A DNA stretch of 9,450 nucleotides from a virus (lineage: Duplodnaviria; Heunggongvirae; Uroviricota; Caudoviricetes), in IMG/VR virus record IMGVR_UViG_2711768034_000006, positions 1-9,450 of that record; one strand, given 5' to 3'. Of the stretch, positions 1-9,450 are shown one piece after another; the first letter of the stretch is position 1; every line of letters begins with the position of its first letter. The translations under genes were made by a program, and so were the position numbers. A model generated the notes under the pieces. That model did no database searches, had not been told where the DNA came from, and worked only from the letters and a program-made list of their open reading frames with translations.

Positions 1-3
1 ACG

Positions 4-228
4 TTACGGGCTGGCAAACGGCACGATTTCGGCTGATGCCACCTCCCTGGTGCGATAACTACACAGCAGGTTCCGCCCTAGCTTGACCAGTTCCTGCTGC
101 ACGCCTGGCAGCCGGTCGCGAGCATGGTCTACCGCTTCCTGTTCAGTGGCGAAACCCTCCATAATTTCGGTTTCGGTGTAGGTGCCGTGTTCCGGGTCAA
201 AAGCAATGATATATGCGCGATAACTCAT
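4..228 (-). CDS. Hypothetical small protein (74 aa), last gene of primase operon
   Basis: ATG at 228 preceded by GAGGG Shine-Dalgarno about 8 nt upstream; 10 nt after primase stop; followed (via wrap) by intrinsic terminator; no family recognised. Confidence 0.55.
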   Translation of the reverse strand: MSYRAYIIAFDPEHGTYTETEIMEGFATEQEAVDHARDRLPGVQQELVKLGRNLLCSYRTREVASAEIVPFASP

Positions 229-238
229 GGTTTAGCCC

Positions 239-2554
239 TCAGAACGGTTTATCTTCGCCGTCACCGGCTGTTTCTGTCATCACTTCCTGTGCGTCACACA
301 GGGGCGGCATACCTGCACGCGCCATCTGCGCTTCACGTGACTGCGATTTGCCGTCAGCGTTCAGCCATTTGGCCTTATTGCGCAGAATCCAGCAGCGGCT
401 TGCCTTGCCGTGAACCTTAATCGGCCCATCAATTTGCAGCGCGCCAGCTTCTTCCATTGCGCGGCGCATGGCAGGTGTGAAGCGGCTTTCTTCACCGTCT
501 GACAGCACATTTGCAATGTCACCTTGCGTGATAACGTCAACCGGCCATGACAGCACCAGGCGGTCAGCGTTCTTCTGCGTCATCGACTTCGCAGCGCCAA
601 TCACTGACTGTTTGGCCGCGTTCATCGGCGGGCGTTCGCCAGGGTTAAAGCTGCTTATGTCGCGCTCCGCCAGGAACACAGCCACAGCGTTGATAAACTC
701 GCGGTCGTTCAGCGCAGCATAGAGCGTGGCGTAAACTTCCTGCGGGCGCGGCTCTGCTTCGTGATGCACGATGCGCCAGCGGCGGTCTGTGTCGTCAATC
801 GGCAGCGCGTTAAGGTGGTTACTGAACACCAGCCAGCGCATGGCGTTGTGTTCACGGTGCTGGCGGCCATACTTCGGGTTCACGTCACGATATTCAGCCG
901 TAACGATGCTGCGCAGTTTGTTGGTGTGACTGTAGCGGTTTTCGCTCACCCCGGCCTGAATCTCGTCAACGATGGCCAGAACGCGCCCAGCTAACTGGCC
1001 GTTGAACTGGCTATCAAGCAGGTTAGGCAGGTCCACGTTCGGTGCCACATAGCCACGCCATACGCGCGCCAGGACGCTGGCCAGCCAGTTGCGGCCTGTG
1101 CCGGTTTTGTTGGCCACGTGCAGCCAGCCATAGTGCGGAAGTTCGCCTGGCTTCTGCTCCAGGTGTGCCAGCCAATCCAGGAATTTTTCGCGCTCTATGG
1201 CATCCGGGAATAGGTAGGCTACATGGTCCAGAAACAGGCTGATGCCTGTCGTGGCTTCTTTGCGTTCGAGCGGTCGCCAGGTGTTGATTGCAGGGCGTCC
1301 ATCCGGGTCACGGCAGAAGATGCCCGCGCCAGGGTGGAATGTCCGAGTGATAACCGTTTTGCGCTGCGGGTCTTGTTGCCACAGAACGGCGGTAGGCACC
1401 GGCTTTTTGCGCTCGTCGCTCAGTGTCATTGACGCTGACGTAAGCTGGCGGAATTCCTTCCAGGTCATAAACATTGTTGTGTCATTGACGCTGGCCACCA
1501 TTTCACCGCTTGCGATCCACACCATAGATTCCAGCATTTCTTCGCGGGACATCGACGGCGGCAGGATGCTGACTGTTTCCGGCTGTTGCAGGCGGGCGTT
1601 TTCTTCCTGCTGCAAACGGCGGCGGGTTTCTTCCGCCACGTCAACCACGCCACCAGCGCGCGCATTGTTAAGCGCAGCCAGGACCGCATCAGCACCTTGC
1701 TCCTGGTGCAAATCATTAACATCTTTGCCTTCTGCCAGGTCGGACGGCAGGGTGGCAACCGCAAAGCCAGTGCGGAAAGCGTCAGATTCTTTGCCACGGT
1801 CAGGGACTATGACCGGAACAGCACCAGCGGCCTTGATGATGTCGGCAGCCTTGCGGATGTTGCCAGCACCAAAGGAAACCACGGCAGCGCAGCCGGTGAC
1901 GGCGTTCACGCTCCAGGCGTGGCCGATACCTTCCACGATGTAGGCTTTCTGGCCTTTCTCCAGCTTTCCAGCCGTAAATGTGCCATCCATAGGGCAGCCA
2001 CTGGCGTTGCGCTTCTCTCCTTTGTTTGGCCCTACGAACTGTAAGGAAACCAGGTTTCCGCTTGATGACCAAACAGGGATTGCCAGCCAGCCTTTCAGGC
2101 TTTTGCTTCCGCTCCTGATGTCCTGCGTAACAACGCGCAGGCCGTCAGGCTTGCCCCACTTGCGCATGATGTACGGGTGTTCAGCGGTCGCAGGTTCTGA
2201 CGCAGCCCAAATGTCAATCGGGTTGTGTTTGGCTTTTGGCTTCTCAATAGGTGCCTTTTCCGCCCTGGCTGTTGGGTCATTCCACTGCGCCACGTTACGC
2301 GCCAGCCAGAACAGCGTGTTTTCAGTCACCGAACCGTCAATCTTAAAGCTACCCCAGGCGGAACGCACATCCGCTTCATTGCGGTAGTTGGTTGCGCCCT
2401 GGCTCCAGTTATGGAAGTCATCGAATGACAGGCCAGCAGCCTTTGCAGCGCAGCCAATGCGTGCCCAATCACGGCGTGAACAGTCGTTCGGCAGGGATTC
2501 CAGGGCGCTAAGTGCGCGCTCCATGTTGGTGATTTGGTCGTATGCCAGACTCAT
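239..2554 (-). CDS. Primase / SF3 helicase, phage P4 alpha-like replication initiator (771 aa)
   Basis: Long ORF; N-terminal Trp-rich region; DnaG/Toprim-like EGxxxA motif (IVEGIGHAW, aa 206-214); helicase-like region with Walker B-like LAIVDEIQ (aa 524-531) and SF3 motif C-like LVFSNH (aa 575-580); ATGA start/stop overlap with upstream orf77; GGGGG Shine-Dalgarno. Confidence 0.85.
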   Translation of the reverse strand: MSLAYDQITNMERALSALESLPNDCSRRDWARIGCAAKAAGLSFDDFHNWSQGATNYRNEADVRSAWGSFKIDGSVTENTLFWLARNVAQWNDPTARAEKAPIEKPKAKHNPIDIWAASEPATAEHPYIMRKWGKPDGLRVVTQDIRSGSKSLKGWLAIPVWSSSGNLVSLQFVGPNKGEKRNASGCPMDGTFTAGKLEKGQKAYIVEGIGHAWSVNAVTGCAAVVSFGAGNIRKAADIIKAAGAVPVIVPDRGKESDAFRTGFAVATLPSDLAEGKDVNDLHQEQGADAVLAALNNARAGGVVDVAEETRRRLQQEENARLQQPETVSILPPSMSREEMLESMVWIASGEMVASVNDTTMFMTWKEFRQLTSASMTLSDERKKPVPTAVLWQQDPQRKTVITRTFHPGAGIFCRDPDGRPAINTWRPLERKEATTGISLFLDHVAYLFPDAIEREKFLDWLAHLEQKPGELPHYGWLHVANKTGTGRNWLASVLARVWRGYVAPNVDLPNLLDSQFNGQLAGRVLAIVDEIQAGVSENRYSHTNKLRSIVTAEYRDVNPKYGRQHREHNAMRWLVFSNHLNALPIDDTDRRWRIVHHEAEPRPQEVYATLYAALNDREFINAVAVFLAERDISSFNPGERPPMNAAKQSVIGAAKSMTQKNADRLVLSWPVDVITQGDIANVLSDGEESRFTPAMRRAMEEAGALQIDGPIKVHGKASRCWILRNKAKWLNADGKSQSREAQMARAGMPPLCDAQEVMTETAGDGEDKPF

Positions 2555-2784
2555 GCCGCACCCCCTGCCTTGCGCTGCATATCCAGCGCCATTTGCCAGG
2601 CGTCCACGCGGTTGAACGGGAAGCGGGTGTTCTCTGCCAGGTGCCCCAGGTAGATGGAATATTGCAGCGGGCGGCCAGACTGGATGGCCTGCTTAATCAG
2701 TTCCTGCATGATGGCCACGCACTGTGCGTGCGTCTGGCTGGTAGCAGGTTCGCGCATAAGGCGATGCAGGGTGATGATGCTCAT
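2551..2784 (-). CDS. Hypothetical small protein (77 aa), tandem paralog of orf91
   Basis: ATGA overlaps at both ends (2781-2784 and 2551-2554); GGGGGTGCG motif just upstream of ATG; shares DAW motif and AGGA C-terminus with orf91. Confidence 0.55.
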   Translation of the reverse strand: MSIITLHRLMREPATSQTHAQCVAIMQELIKQAIQSGRPLQYSIYLGHLAENTRFPFNRVDAWQMALDMQRKAGGAA

Positions 2785-3056
2785 TTCGCACCCCCGGCAA
2801 TCTGCGCCAGGACGGTGGCCACTTCGCGTTCCGCCAGTTGTTCAGCGTAGGCGTGCGCAGTGATGCGCCAGGCGTCATCTTTGTTCAGGCGGTAGGCTTT
2901 GTTCCCGCGCATTACAATGCGGTAGGTTGCTTCCGCTGTGTCGGTGATGCTTGAACCGTTGCGCAGCATAGCGTCAGCGAATTTGAACGCAGCATCACAG
3001 CGAGTTTCAACGGTTCTGGTTTTCAGGATGGCGTCAGCCAGGTCGTGCAATTTCAT
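2781..3056 (-). CDS. Hypothetical small protein (91 aa), first gene of primase operon
   Basis: ATG at 3056 with GAGGAA Shine-Dalgarno about 8 nt upstream; translationally coupled to orf77; no family recognised. Confidence 0.55.
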   Translation of the reverse strand: MKLHDLADAILKTRTVETRCDAAFKFADAMLRNGSSITDTAEATYRIVMRGNKAYRLNKDDAWRITAHAYAEQLAEREVATVLAQIAGGAK

Positions 3057-3064
3057 TTCGCATT

Positions 3065-3083
3065 CCTCAATATTTCGTTGAGG
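3065..3083. promoter_or_regulatory. Perfect inverted repeat CCTCAA-N7-TTGAGG overlapping the orf91 ribosome-binding site
   Basis: Read directly; on the mRNA the GAGG Shine-Dalgarno lies inside the potential stem. Confidence 0.35.
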
Positions 3084-3122: not shown

Positions 3123-3151
3123 TTGCTAAAGGTAAAGGTCTTTGCTAGTAT
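3123..3151 (+). promoter_or_regulatory. Candidate sigma70-like promoter on plus strand (TTGCTA-17-TAGTAT), antisense to operon leader
   Basis: Hexamers with 17-nt spacer read from sequence; 4/6 match each to consensus; lies about 40 nt upstream of a plus-strand terminator-like hairpin. Confidence 0.25.
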
Positions 3152-3188
3152 TTTTCCTAGTCAGGCCGCTAACCTAGACTTTCATTAA

Positions 3189-3229
3189 GCCCCCTGGATT
3201 GTTCGCGCAGTCCGGGGGTTTTCCTTTTT
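3189..3229 (+). terminator. Plus-strand intrinsic terminator-like hairpin (CCCCC..GGGGG stem) followed by TTTTCCTTTTT
   Basis: Five consecutive G-C pairs (3190-3194 with 3214-3218) then T-rich tract 3219-3229; no plus-strand CDS upstream, so it would end a short antisense RNA. Confidence 0.35.
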
Positions 3230-3257: not shown

Positions 3258-3285
3258 ATGATACCCTGCAATCCGGTTTCTGCAA
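3258..3285 (-). promoter_or_regulatory. Candidate sigma70 promoter for orf91-orf77-primase-orf74 operon (TTGCAG-16-TATCAT on minus strand)
   Basis: -35 at 3285..3280, -10 at 3263..3258; about 200-nt leader to orf91 start. Confidence 0.35.
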
Positions 3286-3354: not shown

Positions 3355-3384
3355 CATAATCCCACATAATCCGGCATAATCGGT
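3355..3384. repeat. Three direct repeats of CATAATC at exact 10-bp spacing (3355, 3365, 3375)
   Basis: CATAATCCCA / CATAATCCGG / CATAATCGGT read directly; helical phasing suggests a protein-binding array; near-identical array at 8220-8249. Confidence 0.5.
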
Positions 3385-3402
3385 TAATAAATGCTAACCA
3401 TA

Positions 3403-3431
3403 AAAAAAAGCCAGAGTTTTCACCCAGGCTT
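3403..3431 (-). terminator. Candidate intrinsic terminator downstream of tape-measure gene
   Basis: Minus-strand RNA forms an imperfect GC stem (3430..3411) followed by eight U (plus-strand A8 at 3403-3410), about 27 nt after TMP stop. Confidence 0.4.
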
Positions 3432-3457
3432 TGGTTGCAGTCATCAATTTCATTTCA

Positions 3458-5734
3458 TTACGGTGCTGCTAATCCGTCATTCATCATGCTACGATTTCGG
3501 ATTCCTTGCTGCTGTTTCAGCTTCTGCGCCACCTTATTTGCCAGCGCATCTTCATTCATGCCAGGCTCGGCCTTCACGTTGATGGTGTACTGGTCGTTCG
3601 TGTTCACCGTTGTGTTGCCGGTGCGGTTAGCCAGTGCCGGTGAAGGCAAGGACGCACCAGGGGCGGCGGTCGCTGCTGGCTGGCTGCTTTCGTCTTCACC
3701 GAACGGATTGCTAAAGAAATCTTTGGTTTTCTGCCACGCACCACCAGCAACATCAGACACGGCGTTTTTAAACTCCAGTGCCTTGTTGGTCAGGTTGCCG
3801 ATGTTGTCAGACACCCACAGAATCTTATCAATCAGGAACGTGATCGGTGCGGTCACAAGCTCGATGCCAGCCGCCAGGGTCTTACCGAACGTCATCCCCA
3901 TTTTACCGGCCTTATCCAGTTCCTCGCCGCTGTATTTGACCGGTTCGGTCAGTGACGTGAACCAGTTGAAAACCGTCTTAACCGCAGCACCCACACCATC
4001 AATGACAGGTTTCAGCGGCCCCATGCGTTCATAAAGGCGGCTCAGAGCTTCGCTAAGCGGTTCCAGCCCGGATTTGATGCCTTCACCCACTCCGCCAAAG
4101 AAAGCCTTCACACCGGCCCAATGGCGGTAAATCTGATAACCTGCCAGCGCCAGGCCAGCTACGGCAGCACCCACGCCAGTGGATATGAACGCCGCACCAA
4201 CGGCACGAATGCCGGTAGCCACCGCAGGCAGGCCACGGGTGCTGGCCAGAACGGCAGATGCGTTCATGCGGGCAAACAGGCTGGACATCTGCAACACGCC
4301 ACCTTTCAGGAACGTGAACGCAAAGCCAGCGGCGAACGTCGCCACACGTAGTGCCACCAGTGCACTGGAACCAATAACCACTGCTTTGGTCACGGTAGGG
4401 TATTCGCGCGCCAGTTCGGCAACCTTGCCGATAACCGGGCCAACGGTAGCCAGAACGCCGTTGAATGCTGGCAGCAGCACTGTGCCGATCGTGACGCCCA
4501 GGTTAGACACACGGTTGTTGAAAATCTTAAGCTGTGCCGACGTTTTGGCGGTGGCTGCCTCATATTCAGCCTGCATAGAACCGGCATATTTGGTCTTGTC
4601 TTTGACCATGTCCAGATTCTTTTGGTACGTATCAAGCTGTGTCAGCATTGGTGCGATAGCGCCAATCGATTCCTTACCAAACAGTTGCGAAAGCGTTGCC
4701 GCCTGCATGTGTTTTGGCAGCTTGCTGATCTTGGACAGGATGACGCGGATTGTTTCATCGGCGTTCAGTTGCATTGATTTTGCAACCTGCTTGGATGTGA
4801 AGCCAAGCTGTTTAAACGCTTCACGCTGTGACTTCGTGGCGGATGCGCCAGCGGTCAGGGATAGCAGCAGGTTTTTAATACCGGTGGCCGCAATCTCATT
4901 CTGCACGCCCATACCGCGCAGCGTTGCACCCATCGCAGCGATAGAACCGGAAGCTGCACCAGCGACGCTGCCAAGCGGCCCGATGCGCTGCGTGATTTCC
5001 AGGATGTCTTTGGCTGATGCGGCGGTGTTGTTGCCCAGGTAGTTGATCTTGTCAGCCAGAACGTTCATCTGGTCCTGCGTCATCCCGAAGGCGGCGCGCA
5101 TCTCTGCCATTGCCTGGCCTGCCTGGTCGGCGCTGACGTCAAAAGCCACACCCATTTTGATGGCCGATTCAGCAAACTTGGTTAGTTCGCTGGTGGCGAT
5201 GCCTGATTGAGCACCAGCGGCAACAATCTTGCCGATTTCGTTGGCTGCCATCGGCATTTTGGTTGACATATCCTGGATAGCCTGGCCCATCTTAACCAGG
5301 CCGTCAGGGGTTTCGAAGTTGGCAACCTTGCGGATATCTGCCAGCGTATCTTCAAAATCCATAGCCTGTTTGATCGGTACAGCTACCGTTGCGCCAAGTG
5401 CGACAGTCCCCAGGATTCCTTCTTTGTAGCCTTGACGCTTCGCCAGGTTGCGTTCGCGGGCATCCTCCACGCGTTTCAGGCGTTCGGTGGCAGAACGAAG
5501 GCGTTCAACCTGCCCGACAACCGTTTGATAGCGGTCCTTCATGCGGGAGAATATCGCGCTATCCTGGCCATAACGCTTCATTGCTTCATTTAACTGGCGC
5601 TGTTCGCGCGACAGCTTAGAGATTGCGCTACCAATCTCGACGGTATTTTTCTTTACAGTTCCAAATGCACCACGAAGGCTGCCGGAAACGGCCCCACCAA
5701 TCGTGATTTTTGCATTTAACTTCTTGTTGGCCAT
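3458..5734 (-). CDS. Phage tail tape-measure protein-like (758 aa)
   Basis: Coiled-coil, A/G/Q-rich N-terminal half typical of tape-measure core regions; long central hydrophobic Gly/Ala-rich segment (about aa 440-540); size typical of siphovirus tape-measure proteins; ATG at 5734. Confidence 0.75.
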   Translation of the reverse strand: MANKKLNAKITIGGAVSGSLRGAFGTVKKNTVEIGSAISKLSREQRQLNEAMKRYGQDSAIFSRMKDRYQTVVGQVERLRSATERLKRVEDARERNLAKRQGYKEGILGTVALGATVAVPIKQAMDFEDTLADIRKVANFETPDGLVKMGQAIQDMSTKMPMAANEIGKIVAAGAQSGIATSELTKFAESAIKMGVAFDVSADQAGQAMAEMRAAFGMTQDQMNVLADKINYLGNNTAASAKDILEITQRIGPLGSVAGAASGSIAAMGATLRGMGVQNEIAATGIKNLLLSLTAGASATKSQREAFKQLGFTSKQVAKSMQLNADETIRVILSKISKLPKHMQAATLSQLFGKESIGAIAPMLTQLDTYQKNLDMVKDKTKYAGSMQAEYEAATAKTSAQLKIFNNRVSNLGVTIGTVLLPAFNGVLATVGPVIGKVAELAREYPTVTKAVVIGSSALVALRVATFAAGFAFTFLKGGVLQMSSLFARMNASAVLASTRGLPAVATGIRAVGAAFISTGVGAAVAGLALAGYQIYRHWAGVKAFFGGVGEGIKSGLEPLSEALSRLYERMGPLKPVIDGVGAAVKTVFNWFTSLTEPVKYSGEELDKAGKMGMTFGKTLAAGIELVTAPITFLIDKILWVSDNIGNLTNKALEFKNAVSDVAGGAWQKTKDFFSNPFGEDESSQPAATAAPGASLPSPALANRTGNTTVNTNDQYTINVKAEPGMNEDALANKVAQKLKQQQGIRNRSMMNDGLAAP

Positions 5735-7200: not shown

Positions 7201-8085
7201 TCAAGCCTTCCAGAACATAGTTGAGTCAGGCACCAGTGCGGATGCGTTCACCCACACAACGATTTCAACGGCACCATTCAGCACGCGGCGGGCGGTGACG
7301 CGGATTTCATCATCCAGGGCAACGGCTGCATTGCCGAAAGCGCCAATGATTGTGCTGGAAGTCTGGCCGCTGATTTCAGCGCGTACACCGTAGGCACGCA
7401 GAACGCCGTCTTGCAGTTCCAGGCCGGTGCAATCACCGCCAACAATGGCTTTAACTTCATCAAAGCGCAGGTTTTTGGCTGCAATCTTCTGCGCCACTGC
7501 GGTGAATGACGGGCTGGTAAGGGTTTCCGCTGCGCTTTCCAGGTGGTTCAGCAGCACGAAGTCAGCCAGATCGGCAATACCGCGTTCAATGGCGGTGTTG
7601 ACCGCTTCCAGCACTGTATCGTCAGCGAATTCGTGTTTCAGTTGCTGGCGGGTCAGGGTGTAGCCAACGCCGTAAGCCGGTGCGGTGTTGTGGTCGAATG
7701 CTGCAACCATGTACGGCTTGCCGCTCATGCTGATTTCTTCGCCGTCAGTAACTTTGGCGAACGCACCAGGGCGGATGACAACGAAGCGGTCAGCCACTTC
7801 GAGGCCAGTCGTTGCACCAGTCTGGCCAGTCGGCTGCGTGGTCATCGGGCCAGGAATGCGGATGATTTCAGCGCCTGCCTGTGCCACCAGCGAACGTTCA
7901 GCCAGAACAGCGTTGAAGGTGGTCTGCTTGCCACCTTTCGGGGTCAGCACGTCATTCATGGACAGGTAGCGAACTGCTGCCGGTTCCATAGGGATAAATT
8001 GAGTAATATCACCGTTGCCATCAGTGCGAACATGGCCGCCCTGGTGGTTCAACGCGTCGTTGATAAGTTGAGATAAAACGTTCAT
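7201..8085 (-). CDS. Beta-rich structural-like protein of unknown family (294 aa), first gene of operon 2
   Basis: ORF-track start at 8169 is TTG with a non-protein-like leader; ATG at 8085 has GGAG 8-9 nt upstream; A/G/T/V-rich composition like capsid or tail proteins; no motif recognised. Confidence 0.65.
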   Translation of the reverse strand: MNVLSQLINDALNHQGGHVRTDGNGDITQFIPMEPAAVRYLSMNDVLTPKGGKQTTFNAVLAERSLVAQAGAEIIRIPGPMTTQPTGQTGATTGLEVADRFVVIRPGAFAKVTDGEEISMSGKPYMVAAFDHNTAPAYGVGYTLTRQQLKHEFADDTVLEAVNTAIERGIADLADFVLLNHLESAAETLTSPSFTAVAQKIAAKNLRFDEVKAIVGGDCTGLELQDGVLRAYGVRAEISGQTSSTIIGAFGNAAVALDDEIRVTARRVLNGAVEIVVWVNASALVPDSTMFWKA

Positions 8086-8219
8086 TAAAAATGCTCCGGT
8101 TGTTGTGCAATAAATCGTCTGGAATGACTTAAAGATATACAGTAACCAGACCGAACACAATAGCCACAATGTGAGCTTTTTAATGTAAAATCAGTAACTT
8201 ATAACCCTGAATACTTGCA

Positions 8220-8249
8220 AATAACCAGGCATAATCCGGCGTAATCGAT
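8220..8249. repeat. Second copy of the phased 10-bp repeat array (AATAACCAGG / CATAATCCGG / CGTAATCGAT) upstream of operon 2
   Basis: Shares the 17-mer CATAATCCGGC[A/G]TAATCG with 3365-3381. Confidence 0.45.
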
Positions 8250-8570: not shown

Positions 8571-9065
8571 TAATCTGACATATTCCGCGCGCTTTCAGCC
8601 CGTATTCACTCAGGCTTATTGTTGCGATATGTGCAACGTTCTGGCTGTTTACTGAACAGCTACTGTTTGAACGCAAAACAAGGCTGAAAGGCTCGTTTCC
8701 TGTAGTTACATCATACTTCTGTATGTTGTACCTATTCCGGCTGCTGCTTTGGTTAGACGTGAAAAAGCGTGGTTACGAATGAGCGGACCACCACCAGCAC
8801 CCATGCCGCCCAGGCACCCCATCCGGTTACAACGCTGAATTGAGTTGTAACCGTGTTATGTTTCTGAAAAATAACAAATTTCGTGCAATCGGTTACAACG
8901 GTTACGCCAAGTTCATAAAGTTTGGAAAAAGCACTATGGGTATATAGGAATATACGAATTTCTTTTTTTTACTAATCTGTTGTAACCATTGTAACCGGAA
9001 TGGGTAAAATCATTAATATTCAGTGGCTTGCGTGGTTACAACGCCGGTTACAACACCGATTTTGC

Positions 9066-9092
9066 GTTGTAACCGTTGTAACCGTTGTAACC
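9066..9092. repeat. Three perfect tandem copies of GTTGTAACC
   Basis: Read directly. Confidence 0.9.
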
Positions 9093-9103
9093 GTAGTAGG
9101 CAT

Positions 9104-9129
9104 AAAAAAGCCCCGGCAGATGCCAGGGC
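9104..9129 (-). terminator. Intrinsic terminator ending the primase operon
   Basis: Minus-strand RNA GCCCUGGC-AUCU-GCCGGGGC (8-bp stem with one G-U, 4-nt loop) followed by UUUUUU, 25 nt after orf74 stop. Confidence 0.55.
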
Positions 9130-9151
9130 GGTCAGAACAAAAATTGTTGTA

Positions 9152-9450
9152 ACGTTACGGGCTGGCAAACGGCACGATTTCGGCTGATGCCACCTCCCTG
9201 GTGCGATAACTACACAGCAGGTTCCGCCCTAGCTTGACCAGTTCCTGCTGCACGCCTGGCAGCCGGTCGCGAGCATGGTCTACCGCTTCCTGTTCAGTGG
9301 CGAAACCCTCCATAATTTCGGTTTCGGTGTAGGTGCCGTGTTCCGGGTCAAAAGCAATGATATATGCGCGATAACTCATGGTTTAGCCCTCAGAACGGTT
9401 TATCTTCGCCGTCACCGGCTGTTTCTGTCATCACTTCCTGTGCGTCACAC
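9152..9450. repeat. Wrap-around duplicate of window positions 1-299
   Basis: Identical sequence; the ORF track lists the same 74-aa protein at 4..228 and 9155..9379. Confidence 0.9.
9155..9379 (-). CDS. Second copy of the 74-aa hypothetical protein (same locus as 4..228 via wrap-around)
   Basis: Identical translation in ORF track. Confidence 0.55.
   Translation of the reverse strand: MSYRAYIIAFDPEHGTYTETEIMEGFATEQEAVDHARDRLPGVQQELVKLGRNLLCSYRTREVASAEIVPFASP

What the first reader, a model, noticed from the sequence alone, without database searches (positions are those of the whole stretch)
2551..3056. Two leader genes of the primase operon are diverged tandem paralogs
orf91 and orf77 share a DAW motif encoded by the identical 10-mer gccaggcgtc (2595-2604 and 2867-2876), an AGGA C-terminus, and the same junction GGGGGTGCGnnATGA with ATGA start/stop overlap. 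This indicates an ancient tandem duplication, perhaps a regulator and anti-regulator pair gating primase expression.
Basis: seen in the sequence. Interest (0 to 1): 0.4.

Follow-up and report, generated by a model that had tools for sequence, protein, structure and literature searches.

The report
Two possibly paralogous primase-operon leader genes
Two small uncharacterised genes translated just ahead of the primase of a 9-kb plasmid-like phage satellite are probably very old duplicates of each other, but part of their resemblance is only the shared ribosome-binding signal, and nothing shows that they form a regulator/anti-regulator pair.

Summary
They are not equal as evidence.

**Translation signals, not duplication relics.** The AGGA C-termini and the GGGGGTGCGnnATGA junctions are a Shine-Dalgarno site plus an ATGA stop/start overlap. 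The same context precedes orf91 itself, orf74, and the unrelated alpA of relatives.

**The DAW motif is more telling.** N58, D61, A62 and W63 are invariant in both families, at identical residue numbers. They cap helix 4 of two AlphaFold models that share one four-helix layout.
- Profile-profile comparison gives a collinear alignment of 61-64 columns, P about 0.001-0.002.
- That score beats 400 column shuffles and 184 comparisons with unrelated small-ORF families.
- BLASTP finds nothing, HH probability is only 13-39%, and outside the motif the signal is marginal.

I put remote paralogy at about 0.6.

**Synteny.** The orf77 family always sits directly before the primase, in both plasmid-like and integrated forms. 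The orf91/orf84 family occurs only in forms lacking integrase and AlpA, in AlpA's slot.

**Specificity.** Identical leaders accompany primases only 25% identical, with different iterons. The leaders are therefore not specific to one primase or origin.

**Function.** Unknown; both are orphan families. The regulator/anti-regulator idea has no support. A conserved candidate antisense RNA in the operon leader is a better candidate for gating.

The parts
2781..3056 (-). orf91, 'leader 1': a 91-aa all-alpha protein and first cistron of the replication operon. It belongs to one family with the 84-aa leader-1 proteins of related plasmids.
   Evidence: ORF call. Annotated as WP_001536341.1 in five plasmids. 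AlphaFold pLDDT 90.6, helices 3-11, 16-32, 37-48 and 59-89. P0016 bridges the orf84 and orf91 types. dN/dS is 0.28-0.33 within the orf84 branch.
2551..2784 (-). orf77, 'leader 2': a 77-aa all-alpha protein. Its start overlaps the orf91 stop and its stop overlaps the primase start. This family lies directly before the primase in every relative examined.
   Evidence: AlphaFold pLDDT 82.1, helices 3-10, 16-36, 39-51 and 59-72. Synteny in L003, L004, L008, L094, L096, L098 and L099. HMM hit to the 93-aa protein of the integrated islands, E=2.8e-5. pN 0.23 against pS 0.81 versus L004.
2868..2876 (-). D61-A62-W63 codons of orf91, within the conserved block Y55-W63 at the N-terminal cap of helix 4.
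   Evidence: Invariant columns in alignment A1. Helix 4 starts at residue 59. Same offset from the start codon as in orf77.
2596..2604 (-). D61-A62-W63 codons of orf77, within the conserved block F55-W63 at the N-terminal cap of helix 4.
   Evidence: Invariant columns in alignment A2. Helix 4 starts at residue 59.
2781..2795 (-). Junction orf91/orf77: GGGGGTGCGAAATGA. This is the Shine-Dalgarno site GGGGGT for orf77, embedded in the last codons of orf91 (G-G-A-K), plus the ATGA stop/start overlap.
2551..2565 (-). Junction orf77/primase: GGGGGTGCGGCATGA. This is the Shine-Dalgarno site for the primase, embedded in the last codons of orf77 (G-G-A-A), plus the ATGA overlap.
   Evidence: Megablast matches to plasmids that carry a different primase begin at window position 2538.
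3053..3069 (-). orf91's own start context, TGAGGAATGCGAAATGA. It is a third copy of the 'G-rich SD - TGCG - nn - ATGA' pattern, and no ORF lies upstream of it.
239..2554 (-). Primase-helicase of 771 aa (PriCT-2, Toprim, DUF5906), third cistron of the operon.
   Evidence: Pfam and PHROG hits.
4..228 (-). orf74, fourth cistron of the operon. It is repeated at 9155-9379 because the window wraps around the circle.
8825..9092 (.). Nine copies of the iteron GTTGTAACC in both orientations, downstream of orf74. This is the presumed replication origin.
   Evidence: Relatives with other primase types carry other iterons at the same place.
3258..3285 (-). Candidate promoter of the operon: TTGCAG, 16-nt spacer, TATCAT.
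   Evidence: Read from the sequence. The -35 hexamer and the spacing are conserved in diverged relatives. The consensus scan did not call it.
3123..3228 (+). Candidate antisense small RNA inside the operon leader: -35 TTGCTA (3123-3128), -10 TAGTAT (3146-3151), two hairpins, and a terminator at 3191-3228.
   Evidence: Terminator scan. Folding z-score -3.6. Promoter hexamers and hairpins are conserved in L008, L094 and L096, with changes in the stems. No Rfam match.

Best explanation
**What the genes are.** orf91 and orf77 are real protein-coding genes. They are the first two cistrons of a four-gene replication operon, orf91 > orf77 > primase-helicase > orf74, on a 9,151-bp circular plasmid-like satellite.

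**How they are translated.** The first three cistrons are coupled. Each stop codon overlaps the next start (ATGA). The next gene's Shine-Dalgarno site (GGGGGU) lies in the last codons of the gene before it. This is why both proteins end in A-G-G-A. The sequence arrangement is shown; the coupling itself is inferred.

**What the proteins look like.** Both are predicted four-helix proteins with the same layout. In both, the most conserved segment is hydrophobic-x-hydrophobic-N-(K/R)-x-D-A-W, capping helix 4 at identical residue numbers.

**Most likely origin (inferred).** They are remote paralogs.
- The primase-proximal gene (orf77 family) is universal in this element family.
- It was duplicated in tandem.
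- The upstream copy (orf91/orf84 family) was kept only in forms without integrase and AlpA, where it occupies AlpA's position.

**Most likely function (weak inference).**
- They are accessory or modulator proteins made together with the primase.
- They may act as a homodimer or heterodimer through the shared helix-4 motif.
- Their role is generic to the element, for example control of the operon or contact with a host or helper-phage factor. It is not tied to one primase or one origin.
For: **Gene reality**
- Annotated as coding sequences in five plasmid records.
- Purifying selection: pN 0.23 against pS 0.81 for orf77 versus L004; dN/dS 0.28-0.33 in the orf84 branch.

**Coupling signals**
- The 'GAGG/GGGG + 5-7 nt + ATGAG' context precedes orf91, orf77, the primase and orf74.
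- It also precedes alpA and the primase of L003, where the upstream gene overlaps in another frame.

**Homology**
- N58, D61, A62 and W63 are invariant in both families, at the same numbers.
- Helices are 3-11/16-32/37-48/59-89 in orf91 and 3-10/16-36/39-51/59-72 in orf77.
- Secondary-structure agreement is 77% and peaks at offset 0.
- hhalign gives P=0.0017, 0.0007 and 0.0022 over 62-64 collinear columns.
- None of 400 column shuffles reaches the observed score: 23.6 against a shuffle maximum of 17.1.
- None of 184 comparisons with 92 unrelated small-ORF family profiles reaches 21.1. Their maxima are 17.2 and 13.3, with at most 32 columns among the listed top hits.
- The N-terminal halves alone, without the motif, give P=0.004 and 0.019, with 0/300 and 1/300 shuffles reaching them.
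- An identical run of 10 nt at the same offset has P=0.0012, and zero-offset nucleotide identity has P=0.0006.

**Synteny**
- Integrated forms read int-alpA-(orf77-like)-primase.
- Circular forms read (orf91 or orf84)-(orf77-like)-primase.

**Not primase- or origin-specific**
- L002 has leader 1 at 100% and leader 2 at 99% identity to the window, but its primase is 25% identical.
- Its iterons are TAGGTGTCA instead of GTTGTAACC.
Against: - BLASTP finds no alignment at E<=100.
- The Smith-Waterman score is only at P=0.03 and the semi-global score at P=0.095.
- HH probability is 13-39%, below the level usually trusted. It did not rise when the families were enlarged.
- Scored as a single sequence against the orf91-family profile, orf77 sits only at about the 98th-99th percentile of 700 small ORFs.
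- Outside the motif, the ungapped similarity is marginal: P=0.05 for nucleotides and 0.065 for BLOSUM.
- The AlphaFold models rest on alignments of only 3 and 5 sequences.
- The functional part has no direct evidence at all.
Confidence: 0.55

Rival explanations
1. The two proteins are unrelated small helical orphans. Their resemblance comes from three sources: shared translation signals at the gene ends, generic amphipathic-helix composition, and a chance DAW tripeptide.
For: - BLASTP finds nothing.
- A shared 10-mer anywhere has P=0.13.
- The junction and C-terminal features are explained by Shine-Dalgarno sites.
- HH probability is below 40%.
- Outside the motif, similarity has P about 0.05.
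Against: - The motif is the most conserved block of both families and sits at identical residue numbers in the same helix cap.
- The hhalign match is collinear over 62-64 columns and exceeds every one of 400 shuffles and 184 comparisons with real families.
- The N-terminal halves alone also score above their nulls.
- Offset 0 is the unique optimum among 31 in-frame offsets.
Confidence: 0.3
2. One reading: the pair is a regulator and an anti-regulator that gate primase expression.
For: - Both genes lie at the head of the primase operon.
- orf91 sits where the transcriptional regulator AlpA sits in integrated relatives.
- GATTAYG repeats in 10-bp phase lie upstream of both operons and could be operators.
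Against: - Neither protein matches a helix-turn-helix, ribbon-helix-helix or any regulator family in Pfam, PHROGs, NCBIfam, PADLOC or PDB sequences.
- Integrated elements have only the orf77-type gene, so the pair is not an obligate couple.
- The GATTAYG repeats also occur in integrated elements that lack orf91.
- ATGA coupling favours co-production of the two proteins, not antagonistic expression.
- A conserved candidate antisense RNA in the leader offers a more conventional gate.
Confidence: 0.1
3. They are replication accessory proteins that act directly on the primase. Either they are stand-alone helix-bundle subunits like archaeal PriX or PriCT domains, or they are copy-number modulators analogous to P4 Cnr, which is encoded immediately upstream of the P4 alpha primase gene.
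For: - The orf77 family is always adjacent to a PriCT-2/Toprim primase and mostly coupled to it by an ATGA overlap.
- P4 ORF106 (cnr, DUF5375) holds the equivalent position before the alpha gene. Its role in copy-number control is from my own knowledge of the P4 literature, not from a paper read here.
Against: - hhalign scores against P4 Cnr (9.5-10.1) and against the primase's own PriCT-2 region (7.8-9.7) are at background.
- No Pfam PriCT or DUF5375 hit appears even at E<=10.
- Identical leaders go with primases only 25% identical and with different iterons. This argues against a specific partnership.
Confidence: 0.2
4. The pair is a type II toxin-antitoxin maintenance module: two small genes with a 4-nt ATGA overlap on a small plasmid.
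For: Gene sizes, the ATGA overlap and the plasmid context.
Against: - No match to any toxin, antitoxin or defence family.
- Both proteins are predicted all-helical and similar to each other.
- The same overlap continues into the primase.
- Integrated relatives carry only one of the two genes.
Confidence: 0.02

Closest known systems
P4 ORF106 (cnr, Pfam DUF5375), the gene immediately upstream of the alpha primase-helicase gene of satellite phage P4
   Same: A small protein encoded directly before a satellite's primase-helicase in the same operon, with an iteron-type origin region downstream of the replicase gene (window iterons).
   Different: No sequence relationship: no Pfam DUF5375 hit and hhalign at background, 9.5-10.1. 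P4 has one such gene, not a pair. In P4 the gene does not overlap the alpha start (6984 against 6969). This is a positional analogy only.
AlpA (Pfam PF05930 / HTH_17), the first gene of the replication operon in PICI-type and P4-type satellites
   Same: orf91/orf84 occupies the position that AlpA holds in integrated relatives of the same element family: int-alpA-(orf77-like)-primase.
   Different: No helix-turn-helix and no PF05930 or HTH_17 match. tblastn with AlpA sequences finds nothing in the window. The predicted fold is a four-helix protein with long helices.
Translationally coupled leader cistrons of plasmid rep genes under antisense-RNA control (R1 tap-repA with CopA; ColIb-P9 repY-repZ with Inc RNA). 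This comparison is from my own knowledge.
   Same: Upstream cistrons whose stop overlaps the start of the replication gene, with the replication gene's ribosome-binding site inside the upstream cistron. A candidate countertranscript also lies in the operon leader.
   Different: Here the leader cistrons encode conserved, structured proteins of 77-97 aa under purifying selection, not short peptides. The candidate antisense RNA maps about 100-170 nt upstream of the orf91 start and does not overlap its ribosome-binding site. None of this has been shown experimentally.
PriX / PriCT helix-bundle modules of primases (PDB 5of3 chain C; Pfam PriCT_1 and PriCT_2)

Membership tests
orf91 and orf77 belong to one protein family (tandem paralogs) | Statistically significant sequence similarity | tested here: inconclusive
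   BLASTP finds nothing at E<=100. hhalign gives P=0.0007-0.0022 but probability of only 13-39%. The score exceeds 400 shuffles and 184 real-family comparisons. Outside the motif, P is about 0.05.
orf91 and orf77 belong to one protein family (tandem paralogs) | Same fold and helix connectivity | tested here: inconclusive
orf91 and orf77 belong to one protein family (tandem paralogs) | Equivalent conserved motif at an equivalent position | tested here: met
   N58, D61, A62 and W63 are invariant in both close-homolog alignments, at the same residue numbers. W63 remains invariant in the enlarged families. An identical run of 10 nt at the same offset has P=0.0012.
orf91 and orf77 belong to one protein family (tandem paralogs) | Duplication scars at the DNA level (junction repeat) | tested here: not met
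   The repeated junction is the Shine-Dalgarno/ATGAG start context. The same context precedes non-homologous genes (alpA, orf74) and a primase whose upstream gene overlaps in another frame. It cannot be read as a duplication scar.
P4 Cnr (DUF5375) | Sequence match to DUF5375 / P4 ORF106 | tested here: not met
   No Pfam hit. hhalign scores 9.5-10.1, at background.
P4 Cnr (DUF5375) | Binding to the primase and control of copy number | not testable with these tools
   This needs interaction and copy-number assays.
AlpA / HTH_17 regulators | Helix-turn-helix domain PF05930 or PF12728 | tested here: not met
   No hit for either family at E<=10. tblastn with AlpA sequences finds nothing in the window.
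PriX / PriCT helix-bundle primase modules | Profile match to PriCT_1/PriCT_2, or a specific structural match to PriX | tested here: inconclusive
Type II toxin-antitoxin pair | Match to a toxin or antitoxin family | tested here: not met
   No Pfam, NCBIfam or PADLOC hit. Only one of the two genes is present in integrated relatives.

The most novel reading that the evidence does not exclude
When this satellite family moved from an integrated, AlpA-controlled lifestyle to an autonomous plasmid lifestyle, it duplicated its primase-proximal accessory gene. The upstream copy then took over AlpA's slot as a new kind of non-HTH controller or partner. The two paralogs would form a pseudo-symmetric heterodimer through the N-x-x-D-A-W helix cap. 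That heterodimer would serve as a generic adaptor that works with interchangeable primase/iteron cassettes.
Probability: 0.15. Interest if true: 0.5.

Novelty: new member of a known kind. Interest (0 to 1): 0.3.

Why it matters
The result itself is small. It assigns two orphan genes to one probable family, and it shows which of their shared features are translation signals rather than ancestry.

It matters mainly as an entry point into an apparently undescribed element family:
- About 9-kb enterobacterial replicons, with integrated cousins at the E. coli fis-yhdJ site.
- They carry a tail tape measure gene.
- They exchange primase/iteron cassettes.
- They keep a conserved leader region with a candidate antisense RNA.

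If the two leader proteins are generic partners of interchangeable primases, they would be a handle on how such satellites control replication. The four literature searches I ran found no description of this family, but the searches were not exhaustive.

Tried and rejected
**Searches for relatives**
- The 5.8-billion-protein database gave only 3 clusters for orf91, 4 for orf77 and 7 for orf84.
- An exhaustive HMM search of 1.84 billion representatives with the orf77 profile gave 3 hits. One of them, P0009, is a low-complexity artefact.
- The primase and the orf77 alignment found nothing in genome contigs.
- Alignments A1 and A2 found nothing in viral contigs.
- The one metagenome scan returned a single near-identical locus.
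- tblastn against plasmids returned only the five known records.
- The 80 viral loci fetched with the primase alignment are distant Toprim primases, without leader homologs. I used them only as null material.

**Family and structure libraries**
- Pfam, PHROGs, NCBIfam, PADLOC and PDB-sequence profile searches gave no credible family for either protein.
- Foldseek against BFVD gave nothing with E below 0.7.
- The afdb50 library was not available.

**Specific ideas tested and rejected**
- P4 Cnr and the primase's own PriCT-2 domain as relatives: hhalign at background.
- An AlpA-like gene elsewhere in the window: none.
- Rfam: no match anywhere in the window.

**Literature**
- Four searches found no description of this element family.

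- Co-folding and 3D superposition of the two models.
Full report
**Setting**

The window is a complete circular replicon of 9,151 bp read with a 299-bp overlap: positions 1-299 repeat at 9152-9450. All substantial genes are on the minus strand, in two blocks.
- **Replication operon:** orf91 (2781-3056), orf77 (2551-2784), a 771-aa PriCT-2/Toprim/DUF5906 primase-helicase (239-2554) and orf74 (4-228).
- **Second block:** a 758-aa tail tape measure protein (3458-5734) and several small genes up to 8169.

Near-identical 9-kb 'non-mobilizable plasmids' exist in E. coli, Proteus mirabilis and Salmonella. The tape measure block also has chromosomal matches in 65 E. coli genomes. In the four I inspected, it lies between fis and yhdJ together with an integrase, AlpA and a VapE primase. 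The element therefore looks like a phage satellite that exists in both integrated and plasmid-like forms.

**Checking the observation**

- the 10-mer at 2595-2604 and 2867-2876;
- DAW in both proteins;
- C-termini AGGAK and AGGAA;
- GGGGGTGCG-nn-ATGA at both junctions, with stop/start overlap.

Taken as k-mers, these are not beyond chance. Codon-shuffled versions of the two genes share a 10-mer with P=0.13, and two 9-mers or longer with P=0.08.

DAW is therefore residues 61-63 in both proteins.
- An identical run of at least 10 nt at equal offset has P=0.0012.
- An identical tripeptide at the same index has P=0.02.
- Among 31 in-frame offsets, offset 0 is the unique optimum. Nucleotide identity is 0.377 against 0.21-0.34 elsewhere, and the BLOSUM sum is +12 against -28 to -94.

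**The junction and the AGGA ends are translation signals**

I printed the 24 nt upstream of every start codon in the window and in four relatives. The genes of the replication operon share one context: a G-rich Shine-Dalgarno site (GAGG or GGGG, often followed by GT), 5-7 nt, then ATGAG.

This context precedes:
- orf91 itself (TGAGGAATGCGAAATGA), where no ORF lies upstream;
- orf74;
- the non-homologous alpA of integrated elements;
- the primase of L003 (CGGGGTGCGATATGAG), where the upstream gene overlaps by 17 nt in another frame.

The 'GG' near the C-terminus follows the Shine-Dalgarno site in distant family members as well: RAGGVV, RNGGAV, KKGGAA and SGVAQ. It is absent in L003's 93-aa protein, whose junction is built differently.

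The AGGA ends and the junction motif therefore reflect ribosome-binding sites embedded in the preceding cistron, plus ATGA coupling. They cannot be counted as relics of duplication.

**Are the proteins homologous?**

*Against:*
- BLASTP gives nothing at E<=100.
- Smith-Waterman gives only the 14-residue motif, with shuffle P=0.03.

*For:*
- **Motif.** In both families the most conserved block is the same motif at the same residue numbers: Y55-R-L-N58-K-D-D61-A62-W63 in orf91 and F55-x-F-N58-R-V-D61-A62-W63 in orf77.
- **Structure.** AlphaFold gives confident all-helical models, with pLDDT 90.6 and 82.1. Helix boundaries nearly coincide: 3-11/16-32/37-48/59-89 and 3-10/16-36/39-51/59-72. The motif caps helix 4 in both. 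Secondary-structure agreement is 77% and peaks at offset 0.
- **Profile comparison.** Three versions of the families give the same collinear alignment of 62-64 columns, with P=0.0017, 0.0007 and 0.0022.

*Calibration of the hhalign score:*
- Column-shuffled profiles reach at most 17.1, against the observed 23.6 (0 of 400). The reversed profile scores 10.2.
- 92 profiles of unrelated small-ORF families reach at most 17.2 against the orf91 family and 13.3 against the orf77 family. The largest-family alignment scores 21.1.

*Caveats:*
- HH probability is only 13-39%, even with secondary structure added.
- It did not improve as the families grew.
- As a single sequence, orf77 is only at about the 98th-99th percentile of 700 small ORFs.
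- Without the motif, the ungapped similarity is marginal, P about 0.05-0.065.
- I could not superpose the two models.

I conclude that remote paralogy is the better explanation, at about 0.6, but it is not demonstrated.

**Family structure and synteny**

The orf91 family turned out to include the 84-aa first cistron of other plasmids. P0016 (94 aa) has an orf84-type N-terminal part and an orf91-type C-terminal helix, and it links the two.

The orf77 family includes 83-, 93- and 97-aa members.

The orf77-type gene lies immediately before the primase in every relative:
- circular forms L008, L094 and L096;
- integrated forms L003, L004, L098 and L099.

The orf91/orf84-type gene occurs only in circular forms that lack integrase and AlpA. 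There it sits exactly where alpA sits in integrated forms. This fits a duplication of the primase-proximal gene whose upstream copy was retained in the plasmid lifestyle. It does not prove that scenario.

Both families are under purifying selection and are extremely narrow in distribution.

**What they do not do**

The leaders are not tied to one primase or one origin.
- L002 carries leader 1 at 100% and leader 2 at 99% identity to the window, but a primase only 25% identical. Megablast matches to plasmids carrying a different primase begin at window position 2538, just inside the primase start.
- The window and L001 have nine (window) or eight (L001) GTTGTAACC iterons downstream of orf74.
- Relatives with VapE-type primases have TAGGTGTCA iterons at the same place, and L096 has ATACGGAAC.

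Initiator and iterons thus co-vary with each other and are independent of the leaders.

**Most likely mechanism**

*Shown:*
- The first three cistrons overlap stop-to-start (ATGA), each with the downstream Shine-Dalgarno site inside the upstream reading frame. orf74 starts 10 nt after the primase stop, behind its own Shine-Dalgarno site.
- Both proteins are conserved and predicted to be structured.

*Inferred:*
- Ribosomes finishing orf91 reinitiate on orf77, and those finishing orf77 reinitiate on the primase. Leader translation would then set primase translation, and the three proteins would be made in linked amounts.
- The leaders act as generic accessory or modulator proteins, possibly as a dimer through the shared helix-4 cap.

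*Not supported:* a regulator/anti-regulator relationship.

**A more conventional gate**

A better candidate for gating lies in the operon leader (all of this is unverified).
- **Sense promoter:** TTGCAG, 16 nt, TATCAT at 3285-3258 (minus strand).
- **Opposing plus-strand promoter:** TTGCTA, 17 nt, TAGTAT at 3123-3151. It is followed by two hairpins and a terminator at 3191-3228. Folding z-score is -3.6.
- **Conservation:** the promoter hexamers, the first hairpin's loop sequence (CCGCTAA in the window and L094/L095, with one or two changes in L008 and L096/L097) and both hairpins are kept in diverged relatives, with changes in the stems.

This looks like a countertranscript of the kind used for plasmid copy-number control.

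**Novelty and verdict**

Paralogy is probable, but two of the three arguments for it were translation signals, and the functional guess is unsupported.
- The finding is a new instance of a familiar pattern: tandemly duplicated, translationally coupled accessory genes in a replication operon, here involving orphan protein families.
- Interest is modest at 0.3. The surrounding element may deserve more attention than the pair itself, because of its tape measure gene, exchangeable primase/iteron cassettes and candidate antisense RNA.

Noticed in passing
window 1-299 = 9152-9450: The window is a whole circular 9,151-bp replicon read with a 299-bp wrap-around. orf74 therefore appears twice, at 4-228 and at 9155-9379.
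   Followed up: yes
window 3458-5734 (-); L003 7913-10186: A 758-aa tail tape measure protein (PF10145, phrog_28) is carried by a 9-kb primase replicon. The block also has matches in 65 E. coli chromosomes; in the four I inspected it lies between fis and yhdJ with integrase, AlpA and a VapE primase. Its DNA is 78% identical to the tape measure genes of myoviruses KA2-1 and vB_EcoM_ECO1230-10. A 2025 preprint (PMC12822802) states that tape measure genes are otherwise not found in satellites. My four literature searches found no description of this element family.
   Followed up: partly
window 8825-9092: Nine copies of the 9-bp iteron GTTGTAACC lie in both orientations just downstream of orf74; this is the presumed origin. 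Relatives with other primase types carry other iterons at the same place: TAGGTGTCA in L002, L003, L008 and L094, and ATACGGAAC in L096.
   Followed up: yes
window about 8787-9151 and 1-2538, compared with L002/L091: Primase/iteron cassettes are exchanged between otherwise 94-97% identical plasmids. The breakpoint lies at the primase start codon. Leaders are 99-100% identical while the primases are 25% identical. orf74 does not always travel with the primase: it is 82-85% identical in L008 and L003 despite primases at 24-25%.
   Followed up: partly
window 3123-3228 (+): Candidate antisense small RNA inside the leader of the replication operon. It has -35 TTGCTA and -10 TAGTAT hexamers, two hairpins and a terminator. 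Folding z-score is -3.6. The promoter hexamers, the first hairpin's loop (CCGCTAA, with one or two changes in some relatives) and the hairpins are kept in diverged relatives. There is no Rfam match.
   Followed up: partly
window 3355-3381; 8230-8246, 8364, 8569: The heptamer GATTAYG, read on the minus strand, occurs three times in 10-bp phase upstream of the replication operon. It occurs again upstream of the structural operon. That makes 7 copies against about 2 expected. It is also present upstream of the structural operon in the integrated L003, so it may be a shared operator for an unidentified regulator.
   Followed up: partly
window 7201-8169 (-): This 322-aa ORF is annotated as about 294 aa in relatives, so the TTG start is probably too far upstream. 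It has no hit in Pfam, PHROGs, NCBIfam or PADLOC, although it is conserved in all forms of the element. Its function is unknown.
   Followed up: no
window 3398-3432 (-): A hairpin followed by a T-run lies directly after the tape measure stop codon on the minus strand (AAAGCCTGGGTGAAAACTCTGGCTTTTTTTT). It probably terminates the structural operon and separates it from the replication operon. The consensus scan did not report it.
   Followed up: no
P0016 (94 aa, from a 2,854-bp contig): A natural chimera or intermediate: the N-terminal 70 residues are of the orf84 type and the C-terminal helix is of the orf91 type (…ILAQIAGGAK). It shows that the 84-aa and 91-aa first cistrons belong to one family.
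   Followed up: yes
L008 6932-7129; L094 3805-4002: Some circular relatives carry a 65-aa protein with a weak HTH_17 (AlpA/excisionase-like) match between orf74 and the structural operon. The window has no counterpart.
   Followed up: partly
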